Source of the DNA: Escherichia phage vB_EcoM_EP57 | Sequence record: OR544956 | Reading direction: 5' to 3' (one strand) | DNA length: 64,000 nucleotides | Part shown: one piece after another, positions 48 to 58,132 of the stretch | Layout of the letters: the number at the start of each line of letters is the position of its first letter | How positions within the stretch are numbered: position 1 is the first letter of the stretch | Made by a program: the position numbers and the translations under genes | Notes under the pieces: generated by a model | The model's input: only the letters and a program-made list of their open reading frames with translations | What the model was told of the DNA's origin: nothing | Databases searched by the model: none

Positions 48-686
48 TTGGTATTAAAAGCACACACTTGCAGCACAATAGGCACTTACTTGTTAAGTTT
101 GGGCTGGTATGTTAATATCTTCTTCGGTGCGGTCATCCTTTTCTGTGCAGCTAAAATGGTATTTGCTGGAGATAATGACGCAGAAGTTGATTACTCTAAA
201 CACTGGGCTACCCGTATTGTTCGTAAACTGTTCCCTGTATCTAATAAAATGGATGGGGAGAAGTTCTTCACAATCGAAAATGGTGTTCGTGTAGCAACTC
301 CAGCTTTGGTTTGCGTATTCGTGATGGAAATGGTGGATGTAATCTTTGCAGTAGATTCGGTTCCAGCGGTGATCGCAGTGACACAAGAACCCCTGCTTGT
401 ATTCTCTTCGATGTTATGTGCAATCTTAGGTCTACGTGCTCTGTTCTTTGTTCTTAGTGTCGCACTGAAGTATCTGGTTCACTTGGAGAAAGCAGTTATT
501 GTGGTTCTGGTGTTTGTAGGCGTTAAACTGATGTATCACCCGTTTGCAGAAACATTGCATGAGAAAATGAGTTTCCTGCCAGCACATATTGATCCAACTA
601 TTAGTATGTATATCGTGCTTGGTACTTTGGCCCTTGGTGTTATTGCAAGCTTTATCTTCCCTGAAAAAGAAGAAGCTACTGTTTAA
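48..686 (+). CDS. terC: TerC-family integral membrane protein, C-terminal part; the N-terminal part (LSVDNL motif) reads in another frame from position 2 and the gene starts upstream of the window
   Basis: Translation contains the second TerC signature VDVIFAVDSVPAVIAVT...FSSMLCAILGLRALFF; frame 2 at positions 2-112 reads LSVDNLVVFVAVFASFGIK; the two frames overlap at 48-115. Confidence 0.6.
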   Translation: MVLKAHTCSTIGTYLLSLGWYVNIFFGAVILFCAAKMVFAGDNDAEVDYSKHWATRIVRKLFPVSNKMDGEKFFTIENGVRVATPALVCVFVMEMVDVIFAVDSVPAVIAVTQEPLLVFSSMLCAILGLRALFFVLSVALKYLVHLEKAVIVVLVFVGVKLMYHPFAETLHEKMSFLPAHIDPTISMYIVLGTLALGVIASFIFPEKEEATV

Positions 687-728: not shown

Positions 729-1079
729 ATGAGTAATTTTGATGAAATTCAAGAACTTGTTTGGGATTTATCTGGTGATGTGGATTACATTTCAGATTAT
801 CTTTCAAAAGTTTACCCTGGGGTAAGCGTTATGATTGTGACCAAAGATCCAATTAATTTGCCTCCTAATGTTGTAGCTTGTTGTGGAAGTGGTTCAGGAG
901 AAGTAGAGCCTGTATCTCGTTGGGAATTAACTAAAGCTGTTTCAAAACGAAACGGTGAAGTTTTGAATATTGATATTGAGCAAATATGGACTTCTCCAGC
1001 AGCCAAATGGAATGATCCAAATGGTTGGGATTTGTTCTTCTGGGATAATGAGACTGATGATGAGGTGTTTTTAAAATGA
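729..1079 (+). CDS. Hypothetical protein
   Basis: ORF with ATG start preceded by ggagag; no recognisable motif. Confidence 0.4.
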   Translation: MSNFDEIQELVWDLSGDVDYISDYLSKVYPGVSVMIVTKDPINLPPNVVACCGSGSGEVEPVSRWELTKAVSKRNGEVLNIDIEQIWTSPAAKWNDPNGWDLFFWDNETDDEVFLK

Positions 1080-1146
1080 AATACTTGTTGGTTGTGTTTG
1101 AAAATATCTGTTTTGCAATAGGGTTGTTTGTTGTAATTTTTGTATT

Positions 1147-1175
1147 GACAAGCGTAATCAACGGCAGTAAAGTGA
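1147..1175 (+). promoter_or_regulatory. Candidate sigma70-like promoter (TTGACA-17-TAAAGT)
   Basis: TTGACA at 1147-1152 and TAAAGT 17 nt downstream, upstream of the lipoprotein gene. Confidence 0.3.
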
Positions 1176-1262
1176 GTTTATACCGAGATGGAGAGCAACT
1201 TTATTGCTTCTCTGGAGATTTCAAACACAGATGTATTAATAGCCAAAACGAGGAAAGCAAAT

Positions 1263-1700
1263 ATGAAAAAACTAGCCCTGATTTTAATTGGTTGTATCTT
1301 TTTAACAGCTTGCGAGGATGAAACAAATCCTGCACAATACCAACAACCTCCTCAACAATACGCTCAACAAGGATCTGACGGAGATACAACTATTATCAAC
1401 AATGGTGGCGGTTCTAGTAGTAGCGGTGTTGGTGAGTTTGCTACAGGTATGTTGTTAGGGCATATGATGAGTGGCGGTAGTAATCGTAGCAGTGGGGATT
1501 ATAACGATAACAGAACGATTATTAATAAGCATTATAATACACCTAAACCGAAAACTAATTTTTATGGTAAGCCTAAACAAGAGATAAAAACTTATGAAAA
1601 GCCGAGACAAACTTTTAAAACAAATAGTAGCTATACAACTCGTAAATCTTACAATAGCCCTTTAAGTAAAAAGAGTTCATCTCGTAGCAAGCGACGTTAA
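1263..1700 (+). CDS. Putative lipoprotein (signal peptide with lipobox LTAC, Gly/Ser-rich, basic C-terminus)
   Basis: Internal ATG at 1263 preceded by gaggaaag; MKKLALILIGCIFLTAC; the track ORF 1188..1700 is the same frame with an earlier start. Confidence 0.5.
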   Translation: MKKLALILIGCIFLTACEDETNPAQYQQPPQQYAQQGSDGDTTIINNGGGSSSSGVGEFATGMLLGHMMSGGSNRSSGDYNDNRTIINKHYNTPKPKTNFYGKPKQEIKTYEKPRQTFKTNSSYTTRKSYNSPLSKKSSSRSKRR

Positions 1701-37375: not shown

Positions 37376-38077
37376 TTAACCTCCGTTGTTTGTTGGGGTA
37401 TTAGTAGCTTTGGCAGTTCTTACTGTAATATCTGACTTAGGACCATCCGAAGAAACTTGACCTTTCACATCACCACCAGTCGATTTATTTGGTGCTGTTT
37501 TTACAGCAATAGCATTAGTAGTGGCCTTAGAAACGAGACGGATTTGTTCGAACTCTAAATCAAATTGCATAGCAAATTCAGATTTATAATCATAAGAGTA
37601 GCCTTTGAGAATAACATTTTCAAAAGTTCTGTGTTCTGTCAAAAGAACTATTGGTTGTCTTGACTCAAATATTTGATCTAGATATTCTATTGCTTGAGAA
37701 ATCCTTGCACCATTTACACCTGCACTGTATAATTGATCTCGCATAAGCCGAATTGGTGTTTCGGTAATTATACCTGAAAGTTTAAATCTGTTGTTTTTTA
37801 TTTGAACGTGGTCACTTACATCCGATCCTGATTCTACTGGAAAACTTGTAACATCTGCCTCACGAGTTACACCTATTTCAGGGACTGAATCGAAAGTAAT
37901 TGCTTTAAAGTTTTGAATGTATTGATCACTTGAACTATTATAAACACTTGCTAAAATGCAGAAACCATTATCACCCTTTACAGTAGATGCCGAGGTATTT
38001 TTATTCTCGGTAGAGTTGATTTCCTGTTCTGCCTTATAGACGGCTCTCACCGACTGTTGTGGAGTCATTGCTGCCAT
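37376..38077 (-). CDS. Distal tail or baseplate protein (hypothetical)
   Basis: First gene after the tape-measure terminator/promoter. Confidence 0.35.
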   Translation of the reverse strand: MAAMTPQQSVRAVYKAEQEINSTENKNTSASTVKGDNGFCILASVYNSSSDQYIQNFKAITFDSVPEIGVTREADVTSFPVESGSDVSDHVQIKNNRFKLSGIITETPIRLMRDQLYSAGVNGARISQAIEYLDQIFESRQPIVLLTEHRTFENVILKGYSYDYKSEFAMQFDLEFEQIRLVSKATTNAIAVKTAPNKSTGGDVKGQVSSDGPKSDITVRTAKATNTPTNNGG

Positions 38078-38136
38078 GATAACCTCGTAGTAATGATAAT
38101 GCCAAAAGGAAGATGCAAGATCTTCCCATATTGATT

Positions 38137-38166
38137 ATTGTAACACATATAGAAACTTCGTGTCAA
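38137..38166 (-). promoter_or_regulatory. Sigma70-like promoter on the minus strand (TTGACA-18-TACAAT)
   Basis: Reverse complement of 38137-38166 reads TTGACAcgaagtttctatatgtgtTACAAT. Confidence 0.45.
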
Positions 38167-38174
38167 GGGAAACG

Positions 38175-38203
38175 AAAAAACCCCGCCGAAGCGAGGTATT
38201 TTA
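38175..38203 (-). terminator. Intrinsic terminator after the tape-measure gene (CCUCGC-UUCG-GCGGGG then UUUUUU)
   Basis: Hairpin with UUCG loop and six U on the minus strand. Confidence 0.55.
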
Positions 38204-40048
38204 TTAACCACCAGTGTTAGATTGTCCACTTAGAGTTGAAAGAGATAAACGTTGGAAAATGCTATTTCCGCTATTTTGAATTCTTGCATCAAGAATATTT
38301 CCAAACTCTGAAGAAGGGCTGATCGTAACTTTGATAAGATCACTTGGTATTGCTACCGTATTCTCAACAACAGGTTGATTACGAGCCAAACTTACATTAG
38401 GTGTATATGCCGACTGACGTAAATCTTCCAGAGGATTACCAAATCCAAAAGCACGTGTCCTTGTTTGTTCTCCTCTCCACATACGACCAATATCTTGTGT
38501 ATCAATACCTGTTAAATTGTACAACCAATCTGCTACAGGATTGCTGTCTCCACTTTGCGTTGCCTCGTATGCTTTTTGTGCTAAAGATTTATTAGGATCT
38601 GTGTCTTTAACGTTATCCAACCAAGAATCATCTTTAGGTAAGGCTTTCACAAAACCCTCTAAGAAGTGGTTCTGCATACCTTGACCTACAAGCTGAACTG
38701 TTGCAGCAAAACGAGTAAACTCTTTAGAAGCATCTATTTGTTCTTGAGTTAATGTTGCACCTGTTCTTTGAAGCATTTTCAATACTTCATTATACCCTTC
38801 GCCGTTTTTACTAAACATACGTTGGTAGTGCATAAGGTCATCACCAAGGTTTTCAAGAAGTCGCCCGATTTGAGCAGAGTTCATACCTCGACGCTCACCT
38901 TCATTAACAGTAGCCTGAATAAAAGCTAAAGGATCGTTCTGTAAAGGTTTAAGCTGTTCTGGATTCCATCCAAACAAGTTCATAATGTCATTTATGCCAT
39001 TATCACCGCCTTTCCACTTCCCTTCTTTCTCATTCCATTTTGAGGCTAAAACTGTATTACCAAGACGTTCACGAACGTCTTTAATATTATCTATTGACTT
39101 AATAATATTTGCAGAGTCTACACCGTTCTGTTCACCCCAAGCTGTCATCGCTAAAATAGAGTTGGCGTTTGTCTGAACGTTTTCAGCGCCACGACTTACA
39201 AGTTTAATTCTTTCGTTAGTATTCATCAACGTGTTACCAACTACAGAACCACCTGCAAACAGCCCAGCACCTATTAAAGAGGATGCAATCATGCGTGGAT
39301 TAAGACCTGCTGCACCTTCTTTTAATTGTCCATATCGACGATCACGATCACGTTTTTGTTGAGCTAATTCACGCTTACGGTTGCGTTCTATATCTCTAAG
39401 TTCACGATTTCGCATACGTATACGCATTTTAGCTTCTGCTTCTAGCTCTCTACGAATACGGCGACGACCGCGAACCTCGTCTTCTATTTCAGCATTCTTT
39501 TCACGATGAGATCTGCGTAAGGCATCTAACTGGTGAGCAAGAGCTTGGTTCATACGTTGAAGAGTTATTTCACCCTTTTTGTATTGCTCTACAGCTTTAC
39601 CCATAACGTCCCTAGCTTCTTGCATAGCCCCAGGACTGGCTTTACTAAATGCTCTTGCTCTGTAGTTAAAGTTCTGCAAACGAAGATTACCTAAATCTTC
39701 CCTACGTGCTGCTGCTTTAGCTTCGCGTTCAGCAGCTTTACGAGCTTTTTCTTCTTCTCTTCCTTGCGGGGTTTTAGGAGTTCTAGGTCTACCAGATCCG
39801 CCTACAGGAGCACCCGCTCCAGCGGGAGTAGGTGCTCGCATAGGTTTTTGACTTTGAGTTTGAGCTTTCTTAAGTTCACGCTCAATCTCTTTCATTTGTT
39901 GTCTAAACTTGGTCATGTTCATAGTGGGTTGCATTTTATTTGCAAACTTCTGAACACTCAACACGGCATCTTTTGCTTCCTTGAGACTGTTCTTGTCCAC
40001 CTTAAACGTAACCACGTTACTAATTTTGGAGGCGTTAATTTCTAACAA
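38204..40048 (-). CDS. Tail tape measure protein
   Basis: 614 aa, highly charged coiled-coil (RRELEAEAKMRIRMRNRELRDIERNRKRELAQQKRDRDRR), located after the tube and chaperone genes. Confidence 0.7.
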   Translation of the reverse strand: MLEINASKISNVVTFKVDKNSLKEAKDAVLSVQKFANKMQPTMNMTKFRQQMKEIERELKKAQTQSQKPMRAPTPAGAGAPVGGSGRPRTPKTPQGREEEKARKAAEREAKAAARREDLGNLRLQNFNYRARAFSKASPGAMQEARDVMGKAVEQYKKGEITLQRMNQALAHQLDALRRSHREKNAEIEDEVRGRRRIRRELEAEAKMRIRMRNRELRDIERNRKRELAQQKRDRDRRYGQLKEGAAGLNPRMIASSLIGAGLFAGGSVVGNTLMNTNERIKLVSRGAENVQTNANSILAMTAWGEQNGVDSANIIKSIDNIKDVRERLGNTVLASKWNEKEGKWKGGDNGINDIMNLFGWNPEQLKPLQNDPLAFIQATVNEGERRGMNSAQIGRLLENLGDDLMHYQRMFSKNGEGYNEVLKMLQRTGATLTQEQIDASKEFTRFAATVQLVGQGMQNHFLEGFVKALPKDDSWLDNVKDTDPNKSLAQKAYEATQSGDSNPVADWLYNLTGIDTQDIGRMWRGEQTRTRAFGFGNPLEDLRQSAYTPNVSLARNQPVVENTVAIPSDLIKVTISPSSEFGNILDARIQNSGNSIFQRLSLSTLSGQSNTGG

Positions 40049-40068
40049 AGTATGTTCCTCGTGTTGGA

Positions 40069-40404
40069 TTAAACAAGTTTCTTAAACAAATCTGACATTT
40101 TATTTGTCTGGTTTTGATGTTTTCTCTTTATTGAAGTGTCTTTAACATACATGGCTTCAACATACTCTTCGTATGTTAAATACTCATATAGTTTTAAAAG
40201 ATAATCTACACCGTAGTTATCCAATGTTTTCAGTGTTTCCGAGGTATCTTTAACGACTTTGCAAAGAATAACCTCATACCACTTCAAAGTAAGGGTTTTC
40301 GTTGCTGTGTCGATAGCATGTTCAATCGCAGGTGTTAATTTGCTGCTAAACTCGTCATCGCCTGAAGCTGTGTGAACAGTTTTCCGAAACCTCGTTTGAA
40401 AAAA
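40069..40404 (-). CDS. Tail assembly chaperone frameshift extension (GT-like product made by -1 frameshifting from 40335..40817)
   Basis: The -1 frame is open from 40428 to the stop at 40069; slippery site on minus-strand codons occupies plus 40398-40404. Confidence 0.5.
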   Translation of the reverse strand, partial: FFQTRFRKTVHTASGDDEFSSKLTPAIEHAIDTATKTLTLKWYEVILCKVVKDTSETLKTLDNYGVDYLLKLYEYLTYEEYVEAMYVKDTSIKRKHQNQTNKMSDLFKKLV

Positions 40405-40817
40405 GGGCCGTAGTTTACCTCCAGAACTTTAGCAGTAAGATCTAACACTAGTTCTGGGTGAGCCATAAATAATTCATCAAAATTTTCTGCAACGTTATAA
40501 CCGTCTTGAGTATAAACCTCATCTAAAATTTTACGCAAAAATACAGTTAAATTCTTTTCTTCCAAACCTGCAAAAAGTTGGATCAGTGCCATAGCAATAC
40601 GTGACTCAAGGTCTTCGTCTGCGGACATTGTTGCTGTGCTATACATAGTCATAGGAACAACCAGAACACTACCCAATTCTGGAATCCTGTCAAACACTTT
40701 AGATGGACTCCACTTCATAATACGGAAAGTAACAGATCTGTTTCCATCTAACGGAATCTCAACTACTTCTTCTGGTCGAGCATATTTTTGAATCGTGTTA
40801 TCTTGTTCTTGTGACAT
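40335..40817 (-). CDS. Tail assembly chaperone (G-like short product)
   Basis: Sits between tube and tape measure; carries the slippery heptamer T_TTT_TTC 21 codons before its stop. Confidence 0.55.
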   Translation of the reverse strand: MSQEQDNTIQKYARPEEVVEIPLDGNRSVTFRIMKWSPSKVFDRIPELGSVLVVPMTMYSTATMSADEDLESRIAMALIQLFAGLEEKNLTVFLRKILDEVYTQDGYNVAENFDELFMAHPELVLDLTAKVLEVNYGPFFKRGFGKLFTQLQAMTSLAAN

Positions 40818-40862
40818 ATTTTCCTCTCTAATGATAAAAAGGGCATTTCTGCCCTTTATTTA

Positions 40863-41111
40863 TTATTGAATTGTCAGAGCAGAGATTGAGTTAAGGGTGC
40901 TCAAACCTACACCAACTTCATTACGCAGAAGACTTGCATCTTTAAGACCAATAACCCATTGGTTCTCTGTAATCATTTCGCCAATAGTATCTTCAGGCTG
41001 ACTTTGAATCCATCCAATCGTGCTAATGTAATAGCCACGTGGGTCTTCCAAGTAAACACTGAACGCTACTTGACGAGTAGAATACATTGTTTGTGCATAT
41101 GTTGCAAGCAA
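40863..41111 (-). CDS. Tail tube protein, C-terminal segment (frame -1 relative to 41066..41314)
   Basis: Frame is open upstream to a TAA at about 41135; together with 41066..41314 gives about 150 aa. Confidence 0.45.
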   Translation of the reverse strand: MLATYAQTMYSTRQVAFSVYLEDPRGYYISTIGWIQSQPEDTIGEMITENQWVIGLKDASLLRNEVGVGLSTLNSISALTIQ

Positions 41112-41314
41112 GACATTGTGAGTGTTCCCAAACGGTTACGACTCAAAGCTAGTGAAACGTCGCCATCAGTCCCTGAATAAGGGTTGATAATATCGTTAGA
41201 TTTAGCAATAACGATTTTAGTATCAGCCGCAAAACCCCACGGTTCCCAACCACCTAATGAAAGGATAACTTGAGATGGGTCGTAGGCCATTACGCCAGTA
41301 AGCATTTTATCCAT
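41066..41314 (-). CDS. Tail tube protein, N-terminal segment
   Basis: Immediately downstream of the sheath gene. Confidence 0.45.
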   Translation of the reverse strand: MDKMLTGVMAYDPSQVILSLGGWEPWGFAADTKIVIAKSNDIINPYSGTDGDVSLALSRNRLGTLTMSCLQHMHKQCILLVK

Positions 41315-41338
41315 TATAGATCCTCTTTATTTTGATAA

Positions 41339-41355
41339 CGGGGGCTTAACCCCCG
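41339..41355 (-). other. Sheath-tube intergenic hairpin (CGGGGG-UUAAG-CCCCCG)
   Basis: Stable stem-loop between sheath stop and tube ribosome-binding site. Confidence 0.35.
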
Positions 41356-41360
41356 CCGTA

Positions 41361-42734
41361 TTAGTTTGCAGTACGGTTAGTCAGGACGTTGACCTGAACT
41401 TTAACGTAATGGAAGAAGCCAGCGTAAACATATTCAATCTTCATCCCATCGACCAGACGAGCATTGATTTGCGCATCAGTCATATCGGCACGAGAAGGAA
41501 TATAAACAATAGGTTTCAGATCGACACGCAAACCAGTCTCTTCAGAAGTAACAACTTCATTAGCGATGGAACCGTTGAGGATACCTACTTGGATTGGGTT
41601 AGCCAGAACAGCTTGTCGAATCAAAGCCAGACCGTTTGAAGTAGCACGAACACCACCACCCAGCATAGACTGTTGTTTAAACAGTGTAAACAGTGATTCT
41701 TCTGTGCGAGCTTTAAACCACAAAGCATGAACAACATAGTCAACAAAGAAACCGCTAACCATCAATCCATCACGATAGAACAGAGTTCCATGCTCTTTAC
41801 GATAGATGTTACCGTTCTGTTGAACAATATTGTTTTCCGAAGTCTGATCCAGTTTCTCGATCTCTACACCTACCAGTGTTTTACCGTGAAGAGTAGTTAA
41901 ACCAGGTTGACGAGAACAGATTGCACCAACAACTGCTGCTTCTGGGAATACAGAATCTGCATCGGTCATCCACAAAGCAAAGCAAGTGTTATTATAACCG
42001 AGGTCATTCAGTCGTTCCAGAACGTTATCTTCTGCTTTCGTTTTAATTCCAGGTTCAGAACTAGAGAAGAAGTAAACTTTATCATTCTCTTCTACCCATG
42101 CAGCCAAAGCTAGAACATCTTCTGTTTCATGGGAATCTGAAAGGGTCCAGAACCAGCTACTATCAATATCATGCAGAGCAGCGATATCTTCCGTAATAGC
42201 ATTAGCATAGACAGTTTCTTGAGTGAAACCTGTGCTGTCAATAGAACCAAACTTACCTTCTACTGGAGTGAAAGTCATTGCAGCGCCGTTGTTAGCTACT
42301 GTAAACAGTGGGCCATAAACAAGATCTGCATTGATCATTTCAGTCAGACCAACTACAATCTCTTGTGCAGTTGCAGTGTCATCAGCAATGAATTTAAATT
42401 CTTTTTTCTTGGTACCATTTTTGATGGTAATTGTGTAAGTTGCACTATCTTCTACGATTGGAGTTAGAGTAAAGTTTGTAACTTCACGCTTACCAACCAT
42501 GACTTGATCTGGTGGGAACAAACCGTTAAACAGTTTGACTGCCATAATATACGCTGGATCATTTAATCCATAACCTGCTTCCAAAAGTGCATCGGAAGAA
42601 GAGTAATATTGAATCGCTTCGCCAGTTACGTTCTGACCTGTAAGGATCAGGGGAATATCGAACTGGGTTTCACGAATTGATGTAGCACCATACAGTAAAG
42701 TTACGGTTGCTACCTTTTCACGAAAAGTTGCCAT
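41361..42734 (-). CDS. Tail sheath protein
   Basis: 457 aa, directly upstream of tube, chaperone and tape measure. Confidence 0.65.
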   Translation of the reverse strand: MATFREKVATVTLLYGATSIRETQFDIPLILTGQNVTGEAIQYYSSSDALLEAGYGLNDPAYIMAVKLFNGLFPPDQVMVGKREVTNFTLTPIVEDSATYTITIKNGTKKKEFKFIADDTATAQEIVVGLTEMINADLVYGPLFTVANNGAAMTFTPVEGKFGSIDSTGFTQETVYANAITEDIAALHDIDSSWFWTLSDSHETEDVLALAAWVEENDKVYFFSSSEPGIKTKAEDNVLERLNDLGYNNTCFALWMTDADSVFPEAAVVGAICSRQPGLTTLHGKTLVGVEIEKLDQTSENNIVQQNGNIYRKEHGTLFYRDGLMVSGFFVDYVVHALWFKARTEESLFTLFKQQSMLGGGVRATSNGLALIRQAVLANPIQVGILNGSIANEVVTSEETGLRVDLKPIVYIPSRADMTDAQINARLVDGMKIEYVYAGFFHYVKVQVNVLTNRTAN

Positions 42735-42768
42735 TTATGCTCCTGTTAGAAACTTAATTCCAATGAGT

Positions 42769-43407
42769 TTATTCGGTAGGGTTGTTAAATAATGATCCAT
42801 TTTGATTGACTGACGAGTATTCGCCTGGAACCAAAGTAATTGCATAAACCCTGTTTAGAATTAAATCTAAAGGGATAGGATCATTGTAACTATCTCTGAA
42901 TGAACGGATGTGCATGTTGATTGCTTCTATTGGTGTAGTAGCAATATCTTCAATACTCATACGAGTGTTGAACGTCATAACCATACGCGCTCTTAATTCA
43001 GTCTTATCTCCGTCTACAATTGTATTGGCTTGAGCTATATTGGAGGCTCCTAAAAAACCAAGACCTTTAGAATAGAGATGTTTGTATTTTAATTCCTCTG
43101 CACCACGGAGAGCAGCCAGAACATAGCTCATCAAAGTGGTAGGTCTTCCACGATAGGCTACAAGTTCAATCTCGTAGGTATTATCCATCTCGTAGGAATA
43201 CATATCATTTTGAATAGAGCTTCGGTAAGACCAACCTCCAGAATCGCTGGAAGTGATAATATGTAGTGCTAGGTAAGGAGTATCCGGTTTAATGAATGGC
43301 TTATCCATAACATAGACTGGCAACCCCACTAATTCTTGAAGGAAGCCACCTATATTTAAGTAGATGGCATTTTCGTATGCTTCTATTTGTTGGTAAATAT
43401 TAGCCAC
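42769..43407 (-). CDS. Virion structural protein (tail completion or neck, hypothetical)
   Basis: Position between head and tail modules. Confidence 0.3.
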   Translation of the reverse strand: MANIYQQIEAYENAIYLNIGGFLQELVGLPVYVMDKPFIKPDTPYLALHIITSSDSGGWSYRSSIQNDMYSYEMDNTYEIELVAYRGRPTTLMSYVLAALRGAEELKYKHLYSKGLGFLGASNIAQANTIVDGDKTELRARMVMTFNTRMSIEDIATTPIEAINMHIRSFRDSYNDPIPLDLILNRVYAITLVPGEYSSVNQNGSLFNNPTE

Positions 43408-56915: not shown

Positions 56916-57332
56916 ATGAGATTTACAAGACAAGAGGTAGTTGTACTTGACGAAGCAATGACAATGATCGTCTTTTACTATGAGGATATCTTCTGTGCAG
57001 CATATCATTTAAATGATATTCAGATTGAATGGAAGCAGATAGCATTCCTGTTGGACAAGAGTAATCATTTGGATGGCTTTGAGTATTTGGAGTGGGATGG
57101 TGCAAAGGAAGTTAAAATTGTAGGGTTAAATCACGATCAGATTGTTGACATGCAATGTAAGTTGTGTCATTATCAGTTCTCAAACAATCCTGGCAACAAT
57201 TGTTCTGATTTTTGCCATGTGTGTGGTTCACGATGTTCTGGTAAGCTACTTTTGAAGACACAAGATGTGTCCTACAGCCGTGTTACGCTTACTGGCGACC
57301 ATACCCCAATCATGGAGTACGTAAAGAAATGA
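56916..57332 (+). CDS. Cys-rich hypothetical protein
   Basis: CKLCHY ... CHVCGSRC; taggaggctagaATG. Confidence 0.4.
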   Translation: MRFTRQEVVVLDEAMTMIVFYYEDIFCAAYHLNDIQIEWKQIAFLLDKSNHLDGFEYLEWDGAKEVKIVGLNHDQIVDMQCKLCHYQFSNNPGNNCSDFCHVCGSRCSGKLLLKTQDVSYSRVTLTGDHTPIMEYVKK

Positions 57333-58132
57333 GCAACTATCCAATTACAGGCGTAACCTATTCTTGTGTAGCAAAAGGTGGTTTATATACAGTAGTGGAA
57401 TTTCCAAAACCTGCCGGAATATCTAAAGTGTTTGATCCTGTGGTTATCTATGAAGATCTTAGAACAGGTCAACGTTACTGGAGATTTGTGAATGACTTTT
57501 TAGATCGTATGGAGGTAGTAAGTGGCGAAAACACCGAAGAAGTTATCAAAGCCAACGTTACTAAGAAACCGAAAAACGAGGTTCTCAAAGTAGCCAAATC
57601 AGTTCCTAAGAAAGATAAATTTGATACGGAGGCATTCGTCTTTGACACACCAATCGAGAAGATTGAAGAAGCGTTGCAACGTCTTGAGGAGCAGGAGGCA
57701 GATCCAATGGCTGAACCACTCGCTGAAGCAAAAAACATTGGTCGTTCCAATGAAACAACACCAGAAGAACAAGCTGAACTTGAAGCTTTTGCCAAATGGA
57801 CAAAACAGTTAAAGAATGGCTATTATAAAACAAAAGAAGAAGCTGAAAACCATGTTCCTTCCACACCAATGAAATGCCAGGATTATAAAGATTATCCTGA
57901 AAGGGTTGTGTTCCCTGGTTATGCACAATACAAACTGAACGGGTTACGTTCTATGATTAACATGAAAGGAGAGTGTTTATCAAAAGCTGGGGAAGTGTAC
58001 AACCTGCCACCTCATTGGAAAGGTATTCCAAACTTTATTAGTGAAGTTGTTGGTCATCCTCTTGATGGTGAAGTGTTTGCTGGGTTAGGTGTCCTTAGTC
58101 TGCAACAAATTAACAGTGCTTGCAGTAGTTGA
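57329..58132 (+). CDS. ATP-dependent DNA ligase-like protein, N-terminal and adenylation part; frame changes near 58090-58130
   Basis: Motif I-like YKLNGLR (KxDG-type with N in place of D) and motif III-like LDGEVFA. Confidence 0.45.
   Translation: MSNYPITGVTYSCVAKGGLYTVVEFPKPAGISKVFDPVVIYEDLRTGQRYWRFVNDFLDRMEVVSGENTEEVIKANVTKKPKNEVLKVAKSVPKKDKFDTEAFVFDTPIEKIEEALQRLEEQEADPMAEPLAEAKNIGRSNETTPEEQAELEAFAKWTKQLKNGYYKTKEEAENHVPSTPMKCQDYKDYPERVVFPGYAQYKLNGLRSMINMKGECLSKAGEVYNLPPHWKGIPNFISEVVGHPLDGEVFAGLGVLSLQQINSACSS

What the first reader, a model, noticed from the sequence alone, without database searches (positions are those of the whole stretch)
40069..40817. Programmed -1 ribosomal frameshift in the tail assembly chaperone
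Between the tube and tape-measure genes, 40335..40817 contains the slippery heptamer T_TTT_TTC (plus 40398-40404, read on the minus strand) 21 codons before its stop, and the -1 frame stays open for about 110 further codons to 40069. This is the conserved G/GT-type architecture of tailed phages, giving products of about 160 and 250 aa.
Basis: partly seen in the sequence, partly recalled or inferred. Interest (0 to 1): 0.5.

Follow-up and report, generated by a model that had tools for sequence, protein, structure and literature searches.

The report
Tail chaperone G/GT frameshift, confirmed
This E. coli phage very probably makes a short and a long tail-assembly chaperone from one gene by letting a few ribosomes slip back one base at a TTTTTTC run, an expected phage trick that public records of this phage group simply fail to annotate.

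Summary

- **Source:** the window is a phAPEC8-like E. coli myophage (Phapecoctavirus, about 99% identical to phage tuntematon).
- **Gene order (minus strand):** sheath, tube, a 160-aa tail assembly chaperone (40817..40335; Pfam Phage_TAC_15), then the tape measure gene (40048..38204).
- **Slip site:** T_TTT_TTC (40404..40398) lies in the correct register, overlapped by a second heptamer, C_CCT_TTT. The -1 frame opens 24 nt before it and runs 109 codons to 40069, giving a 249-aa fusion.
- **Conservation:** the heptamer is invariant in 52 of 52 related loci from two phage subfamilies, although neighbouring synonymous sites are scrambled.
- **Coding evidence:** the -1 extension is under purifying selection (dN/dS about 0.11). 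It has no start codon or ribosome-binding site of its own. An invariant Arg-Phe-Arg follows directly after the slip site.
- **Stimulators:** no downstream stem-loop or pseudoknot was found. An upstream GGAGG, 13 nt 5' of the heptamer, may stimulate the shift.
- **Novelty:** no sampled GenBank record, no protein in a 5.8-billion-protein database, and no paper I found describes the fusion in this lineage. It is a new member of a well-known kind.

Interest is modest. The value is mainly in correcting annotation.

The parts
40335..40817 (-). Gene G: tail assembly chaperone, 160 aa (ATG 40817, TAA 40337..40335)
40398..40404 (-). Slippery heptamer T_TTT_TTC (P site TTT codon 139, A site TTC codon 140)
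   Evidence: Register checked. Invariant in 52/52 related loci and 33/33 unique contexts.
40401..40407 (-). Overlapping second heptamer C_CCT_TTT; a shift here gives the same fusion protein
   Evidence: Present in the Stephanstirmvirinae-type loci and L038 (Pro codon CCT). Absent from the Vequintavirinae-type loci, which have TGT or AGT.
40069..40398 (-). -1 frame extension ('T' part): 109 codons, CAA 40398..40396 to TAA 40071..40069; with G codons 1-140 it gives the 249-aa GT fusion
   Evidence: Translation. phrog_16039 and phrog_10409 hits. dN/dS is 0.11 against 0.9 and above 1.6 in the control frames. Alignment A1 shows the conserved T domain.
40418..40422 (-). Internal Shine-Dalgarno-like GGAGG, 13 nt 5' of T_TTT_TTC (10 nt 5' of C_CCT_TTT); candidate upstream stimulator
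   Evidence: Sequence. An SD-like core sits at this position in 23/33 unique contexts. The Glu codon there is GAG 23: GAA 4, against 121:272 elsewhere in G genes.
38204..40048 (-). Tape measure gene (TTG start, GAGGA ribosome-binding site in the 20-nt gap after the T stop); 144 nt shorter than in relatives
   Evidence: phrog_16051, annotation of relatives, deletion mapped.
40863..41314 (-). Tail tube gene, split here into two ORFs by a private 28-nt deletion at about 41110
   Evidence: The intact 159-aa homologue in tuntematon hits phrog_280 and is annotated as putative tail tube protein in SKA64.
40838..40857 (-). Terminator-like hairpin plus T run between the tube gene and gene G
   Evidence: Consensus scan.
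41361..42734 (-). Tail sheath gene (context: this is a contractile-tail phage)
   Evidence: phrog_205 2.9e-100; annotation of relatives.

Best explanation
Gene 40817..40335 encodes the tail assembly chaperone G of a phAPEC8-like myophage. Most ribosomes read it to its TAA and make the 160-aa G protein.

A minority slip back one nucleotide. They do so when tRNA-Phe molecules occupy the P and A sites on U_UUU_UUC (40404..40398), or one codon earlier on the overlapping C_CCU_UUU. Those ribosomes then read the -1 frame for 109 more codons to 40069. The result is a 249-aa GT fusion: G residues 1-140, an invariant Arg-Phe-Arg, a variable linker, and a conserved domain of about 80 aa.

By analogy with lambda gpG/gpGT and P2 E/E+E', G and the G part of GT are expected to coat the tape measure protein encoded immediately downstream. 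The T domain is expected to recruit tube subunits. The slip frequency would fix the G:GT ratio.

The signal appears minimal. It consists of the heptamer, with no downstream RNA structure, and possibly help from the internal GGAGG 13 nt upstream pairing with 16S rRNA.

Shown here: the anatomy, the family assignment of G, coding selection on the -1 frame, the lack of an independent start, and conservation of the slip site. Inferred: that the shift is ribosomal, its efficiency, and the roles of G and GT.
For: 2. **Register and frames.** The -1 frame opens only 24 nt before the heptamer here and 0-69 nt before it in relatives. In L035 a -1 frame TAG abuts the heptamer, which pins the shift site.
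3. **Conservation.** TTTTTTC is invariant in 52/52 loci (33 unique contexts) from Stephanstirmvirinae, Vequintavirinae and IMG/VR contigs, with G proteins down to about 25% identity. Entropy is zero at the three third-codon positions inside the heptamer, against a mean of 1.44 bits at the 20 upstream third positions. The preceding codon changes its amino acid (Pro, Cys or Ser) yet keeps its final T. Phe codons elsewhere in G are TTC 50: TTT 43.
4. **The -1 frame is coding.** dN/dS is 0.11 between the window and phiWec181, with controls at 0.9 and above 1.6. The T domain aligns across both subfamilies. R143-F144-R145, directly after the slip, is invariant. In rV5 it is kept (CGG TTT AGG) while the zero-frame residue changes from Phe to Leu.
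5. **No independent start.** The -1 frame has no ATG, GTG or TTG between 40428 and the TTG at 40287, which lies downstream of conserved residues and has no SD. In relatives the first start codon falls at non-homologous positions, from codon -4 to codon 82.
6. **Motif competence.** U_UU.Y is the second most shift-prone tetramer in E. coli. All-pyrimidine heptamers are generally shift-prone there (PMC4066793).
7. **Precedent.** P2 uses T6G at the same genomic position (PMC3931495). The lambda G/GT mechanism is summarised in PMC5009743.
Against: - There is no protein, ribosome-profiling or reporter evidence for this lineage.
- No downstream stimulatory structure was found. Fold z-scores run from -1.3 to +1.2, and the alifold consensus energy is about 0 with no covarying pairs.
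- The upstream SD-like element is absent from 10 of 33 contexts. Its codon bias could reflect shared ancestry.
- A T6 run could in principle also give the same protein through RNA polymerase slippage.
- The loci were collected with a peptide pattern requiring 'FF', so relatives lacking Phe-Phe were not sampled. Codon choice, however, was not selected.
- No public annotation records a fusion product.
Confidence: 0.88

Rival explanations
1. Transcriptional slippage. RNA polymerase inserts an extra U while copying the T6 run, and ordinary translation of the U7 mRNA gives the same GT protein.
For: The product would be identical (sequence). Homopolymer runs are the known substrate, and realignment on T/C tracts is documented (PMC5009743).
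Against: - Productive bacterial slippage is described for runs of 9 A or T (PMC5009743). Here the run is exactly six T in all 52 loci and never longer.
- The run sits in a fixed codon register with a conserved 3' C. That is what tandem tRNA re-pairing requires, and polymerase slippage does not.
Confidence: 0.05
2. Two separate genes. The downstream frame is a small independent gene, as many records annotate it (for example the 72-aa ORF 40287..40069, phrog_16039). It would be initiated on its own or by re-initiation after the G stop.
For: Gene callers and several GenBank records list a small ORF here. phrog_16039 is a 72-aa family.
Against: - The TTG at 40287 has no SD.
- Conserved residues (LTPAIEHAIDTATKTL and the RFR motif) lie upstream of every possible start in the window.
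- Annotated starts in relatives are non-homologous.
- The -1 frame is kept open through the whole 20-34 codon overlap in 52/52 loci and opens just before the heptamer. An independent gene would not need that.
Confidence: 0.04
3. Chance or artefact. The heptamer and open frame are coincidental, or a sequencing indel has split a single gene.
For: In-frame heptamers are common, with 78 in this window. This sequence also carries many private deletions.
Against: The same two-frame layout occurs in more than 50 independently sequenced genomes and contigs. This region differs from tuntematon by only three substitutions. The -1 frame shows purifying selection.
Confidence: 0.01

Closest known systems
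Phage lambda gpG/gpGT (Levin, Hendrix & Casjens 1993; Xu, Hendrix & Duda 2004, 2013, 2014; summarised in PMC5009743)
   Same: - Two overlapping frames lie directly upstream of the tape measure gene.
[quoted passage not shown]
- No strong RNA stimulator was found here either (for lambda this is my recollection, not checked here).
   Different: - Lambda is a siphovirus with slip site G_GGA_AAG (from memory). Here the phage is a contractile-tail myophage with U_UUU_UUC.
- There is no sequence-family relationship. G hits only PF21822, and the T part hits no Pfam family.
Phage P2 E / E+E' (Christie et al. 2002; described in PMC3931495)
   Same: Both are myoviruses with the gene order sheath, tube, chaperone, tape measure. 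Both use a -1 shift on a run of six T (T6G in P2, T7C in Xanthomonas prophages). In both, the downstream frame lacks a ribosome-binding site.
   Different: P2 E is much smaller, and E' overlaps the start of the tape measure gene. Here the T frame ends 20 nt before the tape measure start. No sequence similarity was detected. The Z base is C, not G.
E. coli dnaX and IS911/IS3-type -1 frameshift signals
   Same: The heptamer has the X_XXY_YYZ form, and an internal Shine-Dalgarno-like element lies within the 6-17 nt upstream window used for such stimulators (PMC4066793; PMC5009743).
   Different: Those signals also use a downstream stem-loop or pseudoknot and reach 30-50% efficiency. None was found here, so low efficiency is expected.
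HK97 tail assembly chaperone 2ob9, with the uncharacterised chains 3klu (YqbN), 3fgx and 5ir0 (V. cholerae PLE ORF19)
   Different: Sequence identity is 9-17%. Foldseek E-values are not significant. The model has only moderate confidence, with pLDDT 73.7.

Membership tests
G/GT-type tail assembly chaperone frameshift (Xu, Hendrix & Duda 2004) | The gene pair lies between the major tail/tube gene and the tape measure gene | tested here: met
   The order is sheath 42734..41361, tube 41314..40863, G 40817..40335, T frame to 40069, tape measure 40048..38204.
G/GT-type tail assembly chaperone frameshift (Xu, Hendrix & Duda 2004) | The upstream ORF is a tail assembly chaperone | tested here: met
   [not shown]
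G/GT-type tail assembly chaperone frameshift (Xu, Hendrix & Duda 2004) | The second frame overlaps the 3' end of the first and has no start codon or ribosome-binding site of its own | tested here: met
   There is a 91-nt overlap. The -1 frame has no ATG, GTG or TTG from 40428 to 40288, and no SD precedes the TTG at 40287.
G/GT-type tail assembly chaperone frameshift (Xu, Hendrix & Duda 2004) | A slippery sequence lies in the overlap, in the register that allows tRNA re-pairing | tested here: met
   T_TTT_TTC at 40404..40398, plus C_CCT_TTT at 40407..40401.
G/GT-type tail assembly chaperone frameshift (Xu, Hendrix & Duda 2004) | The two-frame architecture and slip site are conserved in divergent relatives | tested here: met
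   Conserved in 52/52 loci, with G identity down to about 25%.
G/GT-type tail assembly chaperone frameshift (Xu, Hendrix & Duda 2004) | Both G and GT are made at a fixed ratio, both are needed for tail assembly, and both are absent from virions | not testable with these tools
   This needs proteomics and genetics. The rV5 proteome paper contains none of the words frameshift, chaperone or tape measure.
Canonical bacterial -1 PRF signal | X_XXY_YYZ heptamer | tested here: met
   The motif class is shift-prone in E. coli (PMC4066793).
Canonical bacterial -1 PRF signal | A downstream stem-loop or pseudoknot a few nt 3' of the heptamer | tested here: not met
   MFE z-scores run from -1.3 to +1.2 against shuffles. 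The consensus fold energy is about 0 with no covarying pairs in either clade. No Rfam match reached a family's gathering score; the only two matches up to E=1 are weak sRNA-family hits around 40745..40905, not at the frameshift site.
Canonical bacterial -1 PRF signal | An upstream Shine-Dalgarno-like stimulator 6-17 nt 5' of the heptamer | tested here: inconclusive
   GGAGG at 40422..40418 has 13-nt spacing. An SD-like core is present in 23/33 contexts, with a GAG-over-GAA bias. It is not universal, and its function is untested.
Lambda gpG / gpT and P2 gpE sequence families | A significant match to those Pfam families | tested here: not met
   G matches only PF21822. The T part and five homologues match no Pfam family above noise.
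Programmed transcriptional slippage | A long homopolymer, with runs of about 9 A/T in bacteria | tested here: not met
   The run is exactly T6 in all 52 loci. The length criterion comes from PMC5009743.

The most novel reading that the evidence does not exclude
The frameshift in this large group of enterobacterial myophages (Stephanstirmvirinae plus Vequintavirinae) may run on a minimal signal that differs from textbook -1 PRF. Three features point that way:

- There is an invariant U_UUU_UUC with a strictly kept 3' C and no downstream RNA structure.
- The shift may be tuned by an internal Shine-Dalgarno-like GGAGG upstream.
- It may also be tuned by the invariant Arg-Phe-Arg / GGUUUCG segment that begins 6-9 nt after the site.

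The T domain would then be a previously unclassified family that links tape measure and tube in contractile tails.
Probability: 0.3. Interest if true: 0.4.

Novelty: new member of a known kind. Interest (0 to 1): 0.3.

Why it matters
- **Annotation.** The 249-aa GT protein is missing from every record I sampled: about 20 inspected feature by feature, and about 120 more by feature names. It is also missing from a 5.8-billion-protein collection. The tblastn search matched 358 phage genomes, many of them candidate therapeutic E. coli, Klebsiella and Salmonella phages. These carry either an unexplained gap of roughly 290 nt or a spurious 40-120-aa 'hypothetical protein' at this spot.
- **Genome engineering.** Correct annotation matters because synonymous recoding of the heptamer, or changes to the overlap, would be expected to break tail assembly.
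- **Frameshift rules.** The absolute conservation of T6C across very divergent genomes is a clean natural example of a structure-less slip site that works in enterobacteria.
- **Limits.** It does not open a new biological question.

Tried and rejected
- **Downstream stimulator.** Eight single-sequence folds and two alignment folds gave nothing above shuffled controls. The only consensus helix pairs the slip site itself with GGAAAA, without covariation, so I rejected it. Tiny hairpins starting 1 nt after the heptamer would lie inside the ribosome and are not conserved.
- **Rfam.** No match reached a gathering score, and the two weak sRNA hits lie away from the site.
- **Structure of the GT fusion.** I modelled G alone instead.
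- **PDB by sequence.** The profile search gave only noise, with E of at least 0.2.
- **Pfam on T domains.** Nothing was found.
- **Literature.** Searches for a published description in rV5, phAPEC8, Phapecoctavirus or Vequintavirus found none.
- **+1 frame.** It closes after 7 codons.
- **Other heptamers.** Those with long -1 frames at 57735 and 1070 are spurious.

Full report
**What the window is.** Megablast of 38000..43000 finds 63 full-length matches among E. coli myophages of the genus Phapecoctavirus (phAPEC8-like, subfamily Stephanstirmvirinae). The best is phage tuntematon at 99.0%. In annotated relatives the homologous stretch reads tail sheath, tail tube ('virion structural protein'), tail assembly chaperone, a gap of about 290 nt or a small hypothetical ORF, then the tape measure protein.

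In the window these lie on the minus strand:
- sheath 42734..41361;
- tube 41314..40863;
- chaperone 40817..40335;
- tape measure 40048..38204.

PHROG and Pfam scans agree. The sheath matches phrog_205 and the tape measure phrog_16051. The 160-aa ORF matches phrog_3840 'tail assembly chaperone' (2.8e-55) and Pfam PF21822 Phage_TAC_15 (84.3 bits against a curated cut-off of 22).

**Checking the observation.** The ORF starts at ATG 40817 and ends at TAA 40337..40335. Counting codons from 40817 places CCT, TTT and TTC at codons 138-140. The run TTTTTTC at 40404..40398 is therefore in the register T_TTT_TTC, with TTT in the P site and TTC in the A site.

A second formal heptamer, C_CCT_TTT (40407..40401), overlaps it. 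A shift on either gives the same protein.

The -1 frame carries 13 stop codons in the first 129 codons of the gene. It then has none from 40428 to TAA 40071..40069, a stretch of 119 codons, of which 109 follow the heptamer. The +1 frame closes after 7 codons.

Against chance, the window's 84 ORFs of at least 100 aa hold 78 in-frame X_XXY_YYZ heptamers. Of these, 59 are followed by fewer than 10 open -1 codons, and only this site exceeds 100. The next two candidates are artefacts. The one at 57735 sits in an ORF antisense to a real gene. The one at 1070 is an ATGA stop/start overlap.

**Comparative evidence.** A tblastn search with the hypothetical fusion finds 358 phage records. In many, the query matches as two pieces in different frames. 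These range from Phapecoctavirus (98%) through Justusliebigvirus (67%) and Klebsiella phage KP13-16 (41%) to rV5-like Vequintavirinae (about 31%).

I extracted 11 annotated loci and 40 IMG/VR loci. All 52 sequences, counting the window, share the following:
- TTTTTTC is present in the same register.
- The -1 frame is open through the whole overlap, 20-34 codons, and for 101-127 codons beyond the heptamer.
- The -1 frame opens only 0-69 nt upstream of the heptamer, mostly 9-24 nt.
- In L035 a -1 frame TAG directly abuts the heptamer, which pins the shift site there.

Among 33 unique 112-nt contexts, the three third-codon positions inside the heptamer have zero entropy. The 20 third positions upstream average 1.44 bits.

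The first T of the heptamer is the last base of a codon whose amino acid changes (Pro CCT, Cys TGT, Ser AGT) while the T stays. The final C is synonymous in frame 0. It is also the first base of a -1 codon whose amino acid varies (Gln, His, Arg). Both are therefore constrained at the nucleotide level, as tandem tRNA re-pairing requires.

Phe codons elsewhere in these genes are TTC 50: TTT 43. The G proteins fall into at least six lineages sharing less than 55% identity. Synonymous sites are saturated, with dS above 1. Retention by chance is therefore very unlikely.

One caveat applies. Loci were retrieved with a peptide pattern containing Phe-Phe, so relatives without FF were not sampled. Codon choice was not selected.

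**The -1 frame is translated, and from the heptamer onward.**
- Beyond the G stop, Nei-Gojobori dN/dS is 0.11 for window against phiWec181 and 0.14 against KP13-16. The same alignment read in the two other frames gives pN/pS of 0.9 and above 1.6 and contains 6-9 stops.
- The fusion proteins align across both subfamilies. A variable Gly/Ser/Asp-rich linker is followed by a conserved domain of about 80 aa, with invariant A168, L178, W180, L208 and E212.
- R143-F144-R145, starting two or three codons after the slip site, is invariant in the 12 aligned fusion proteins.
- In rV5 this motif is preserved (CGG TTT AGG) while the overlapping zero-frame residue changes from Phe to Leu. The -1 reading is thus the better conserved one at that point.
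- In the window the -1 frame has no ATG, GTG or TTG between 40428 and the TTG at 40287. That TTG lies downstream of conserved residues and has no Shine-Dalgarno sequence. G (GAGAGGA, 5 nt before the ATG) and the tape measure gene (GAGGA before the TTG) both have one.
- In relatives the first -1 frame start codon falls anywhere from codon -4 to codon 82 relative to the slip site.

These points argue against the common annotation of a small independent gene (phrog_16039, 72 aa).

**Stimulatory elements.** The downstream stem-loop or pseudoknot proposed as a check is not there.
- Folds of the 48-141 nt around and after the site in the window, rV5, KP13-16 and CB7 have z-scores of -1.3 to +1.2 against dinucleotide shuffles.
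- RNAalifold on 10 Stephanstirmvirinae-type and 14 Vequintavirinae-type sequences gives consensus energies of -0.2 and 0 kcal/mol with no compensatory pairs.
- No Rfam match in 39500..41500 reached a family's gathering score. The two matches up to E=1 are weak sRNA-family hits around 40745..40905, away from the frameshift site.

Upstream, the window has GGAGG at 40422..40418. This is 13 nt before T_TTT_TTC and 10 nt before C_CCT_TTT, within the 6-17 nt range used for SD-like stimulators of -1 shifting (PMC4066793). Such stimulators act in dnaX and many IS elements (PMC5009743).

An SD-like core occupies this position in 23 of 33 unique contexts. The Glu codon that forms it is GAG 23: GAA 4, against GAG 121: GAA 272 elsewhere in the same genes. 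This suggests selection, but it is not universal and is not corrected for shared ancestry.

In E. coli, U_UU.Y is the second most shift-prone tetramer, and all-pyrimidine heptamers are generally shift-prone (PMC4066793). The site should therefore work without strong help, at a low level.

**Structure.**
- An AlphaFold2 model of G, built from a 20-sequence alignment, has mean pLDDT 73.7. It shows a small beta hairpin followed by helices. Confidence drops from above 80 to about 50 after roughly residue 141, exactly at the slip site. The shift thus occurs at the end of the folded chaperone domain.
- Foldseek against the PDB gives no significant match.
- From memory, 3klu and 3fgx have also been discussed as chaperone-like. 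This supports the fold assignment only moderately.
- The T part has no Pfam family.

**Mechanism proposed.** Most ribosomes terminate at 40335 and make G. A minority slip -1 on U_UUU_UUC, or on the preceding C_CCU_UUU, and make GT. By analogy with lambda, many G and few GT molecules coat the tape measure protein, and the T domain recruits tube subunits (PMC5009743). P2 does the same on a T6G run between its tube and tape measure genes (PMC3931495).

The terminator-like hairpin between tube and G (40857..40838) would additionally lower chaperone and tape-measure expression relative to the tube. That is an inference. The roles of G and GT and the shift efficiency are inferred, not shown.

**Rivals.**
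- **Transcriptional slippage** on T6 would give the same protein. However, bacterial slippage is described for runs of 9 (PMC5009743). The run here is never longer than six, and register and flanking bases are conserved in the way ribosomal slippage needs.
- **Independent initiation** of the T frame is contradicted by the evidence above.
- **Chance or sequencing error** is excluded by more than 50 independent sequences.

**Novelty.**
- None of the roughly 20 records I inspected feature by feature carries a joined CDS. The feature names under about 120 further matches show only 'tail assembly chaperone' and/or 'hypothetical protein'.
- A search of 5.8 billion proteins with the fusion returns 41 relatives, all 158-175 aa and covering at most 64% of the query. 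No annotated fusion exists there.
- Literature searches found no description for rV5, phAPEC8, Phapecoctavirus or Vequintavirus. The rV5 genome and proteome paper contains none of the words frameshift, chaperone or tape measure.
- The phenomenon itself is textbook for tailed phages (PMC8785237). This is therefore a new, unannotated member of a known kind.

**Side observation on sequence quality.** Compared with tuntematon, the window lacks many segments at about 99% flanking identity:
- 89, 1092, 486, about 277, 1247, 110, 2225 and 73 nt in replication, tail-fibre and baseplate genes;
- 144 nt, in frame, in the tape measure gene;
- 28 nt, out of frame, in the tube gene;
- 152 + 2 nt in the head-tail connector region.

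For the 38000..43000 stretch, all 20 listed records keep the full length. The four deletions in that stretch are thus private to this sequence among the listed records. For the others I compared only against tuntematon. This points to a defective genome or an assembly artefact. The G/GT region itself is intact, with three substitutions.

Noticed in passing
window 41110 (tube gene 41314..40863): A private 28-nt deletion relative to tuntematon and the other 19 listed relatives splits the tail tube gene into two out-of-frame ORFs (41314..41066 and 41111..40863). The junction lies between short TTGCAAC repeats.
   Followed up: partly
window 18528, 20246, 22476, 25756, 26585, 27912, 29148, 29549, 38604, 43405, 43530: At about 99% flanking identity to tuntematon, the window lacks segments of 89, 1092, 486, about 277, 1247, 110, 2225, 73, 144, 152 and 2 nt. 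Several are frame-breaking in essential genes (baseplate wedge, connector region). This suggests a defective genome or an assembly artefact.
   Followed up: partly
window 40838..40857 (minus strand): A terminator-like hairpin (8-bp stem followed by a T run) lies in the 45-nt gap between the tube stop and the chaperone start. A second lies after the tape measure gene at 38197..38180. This may attenuate chaperone and tape-measure expression relative to the tube.
   Followed up: no
window 40391..40383 (CGA GGT TTC in frame 0; AGG TTT CGG in frame -1): A GGTTTCG core beginning 6-9 nt after the heptamer is almost invariant across both subfamilies. It encodes Gly-Phe in frame 0 and an invariant Arg-Phe-Arg in frame -1. 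Dual coding probably explains it, but a role in the shift (mRNA or nascent peptide) is not excluded.
   Followed up: partly
L008 (Raoultella phage Ro1, MG250486) 135..607: The tube gene of Ro1 is annotated as two short 'structural protein' CDS (135..329 and 368..607), while relatives have one gene of about 158 aa. This is probably a frameshift error in that record.
   Followed up: no
GenBank records MG065689, MG065661 and others ('Campylobacter phage') and OP562383 ('Acinetobacter phage vB_AbaM_ABPW7'): Records labelled as Campylobacter or Acinetobacter phages are near-identical (67-98% over this locus, same genera) to E. coli Justusliebigvirus, Vequintavirus and Phapecoctavirus genomes. The host labels look doubtful.
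   Followed up: no
[not shown]
   Followed up: no
window 57735..57729 and 1070..1076: Two other in-frame heptamers are followed by 81-84 open -1 codons. The first is in an ORF antisense to the real gene 57329..58132. The second is an ATGA stop/start overlap between 729..1079 and 1076..1321. Neither is a frameshift candidate.
   Followed up: yes
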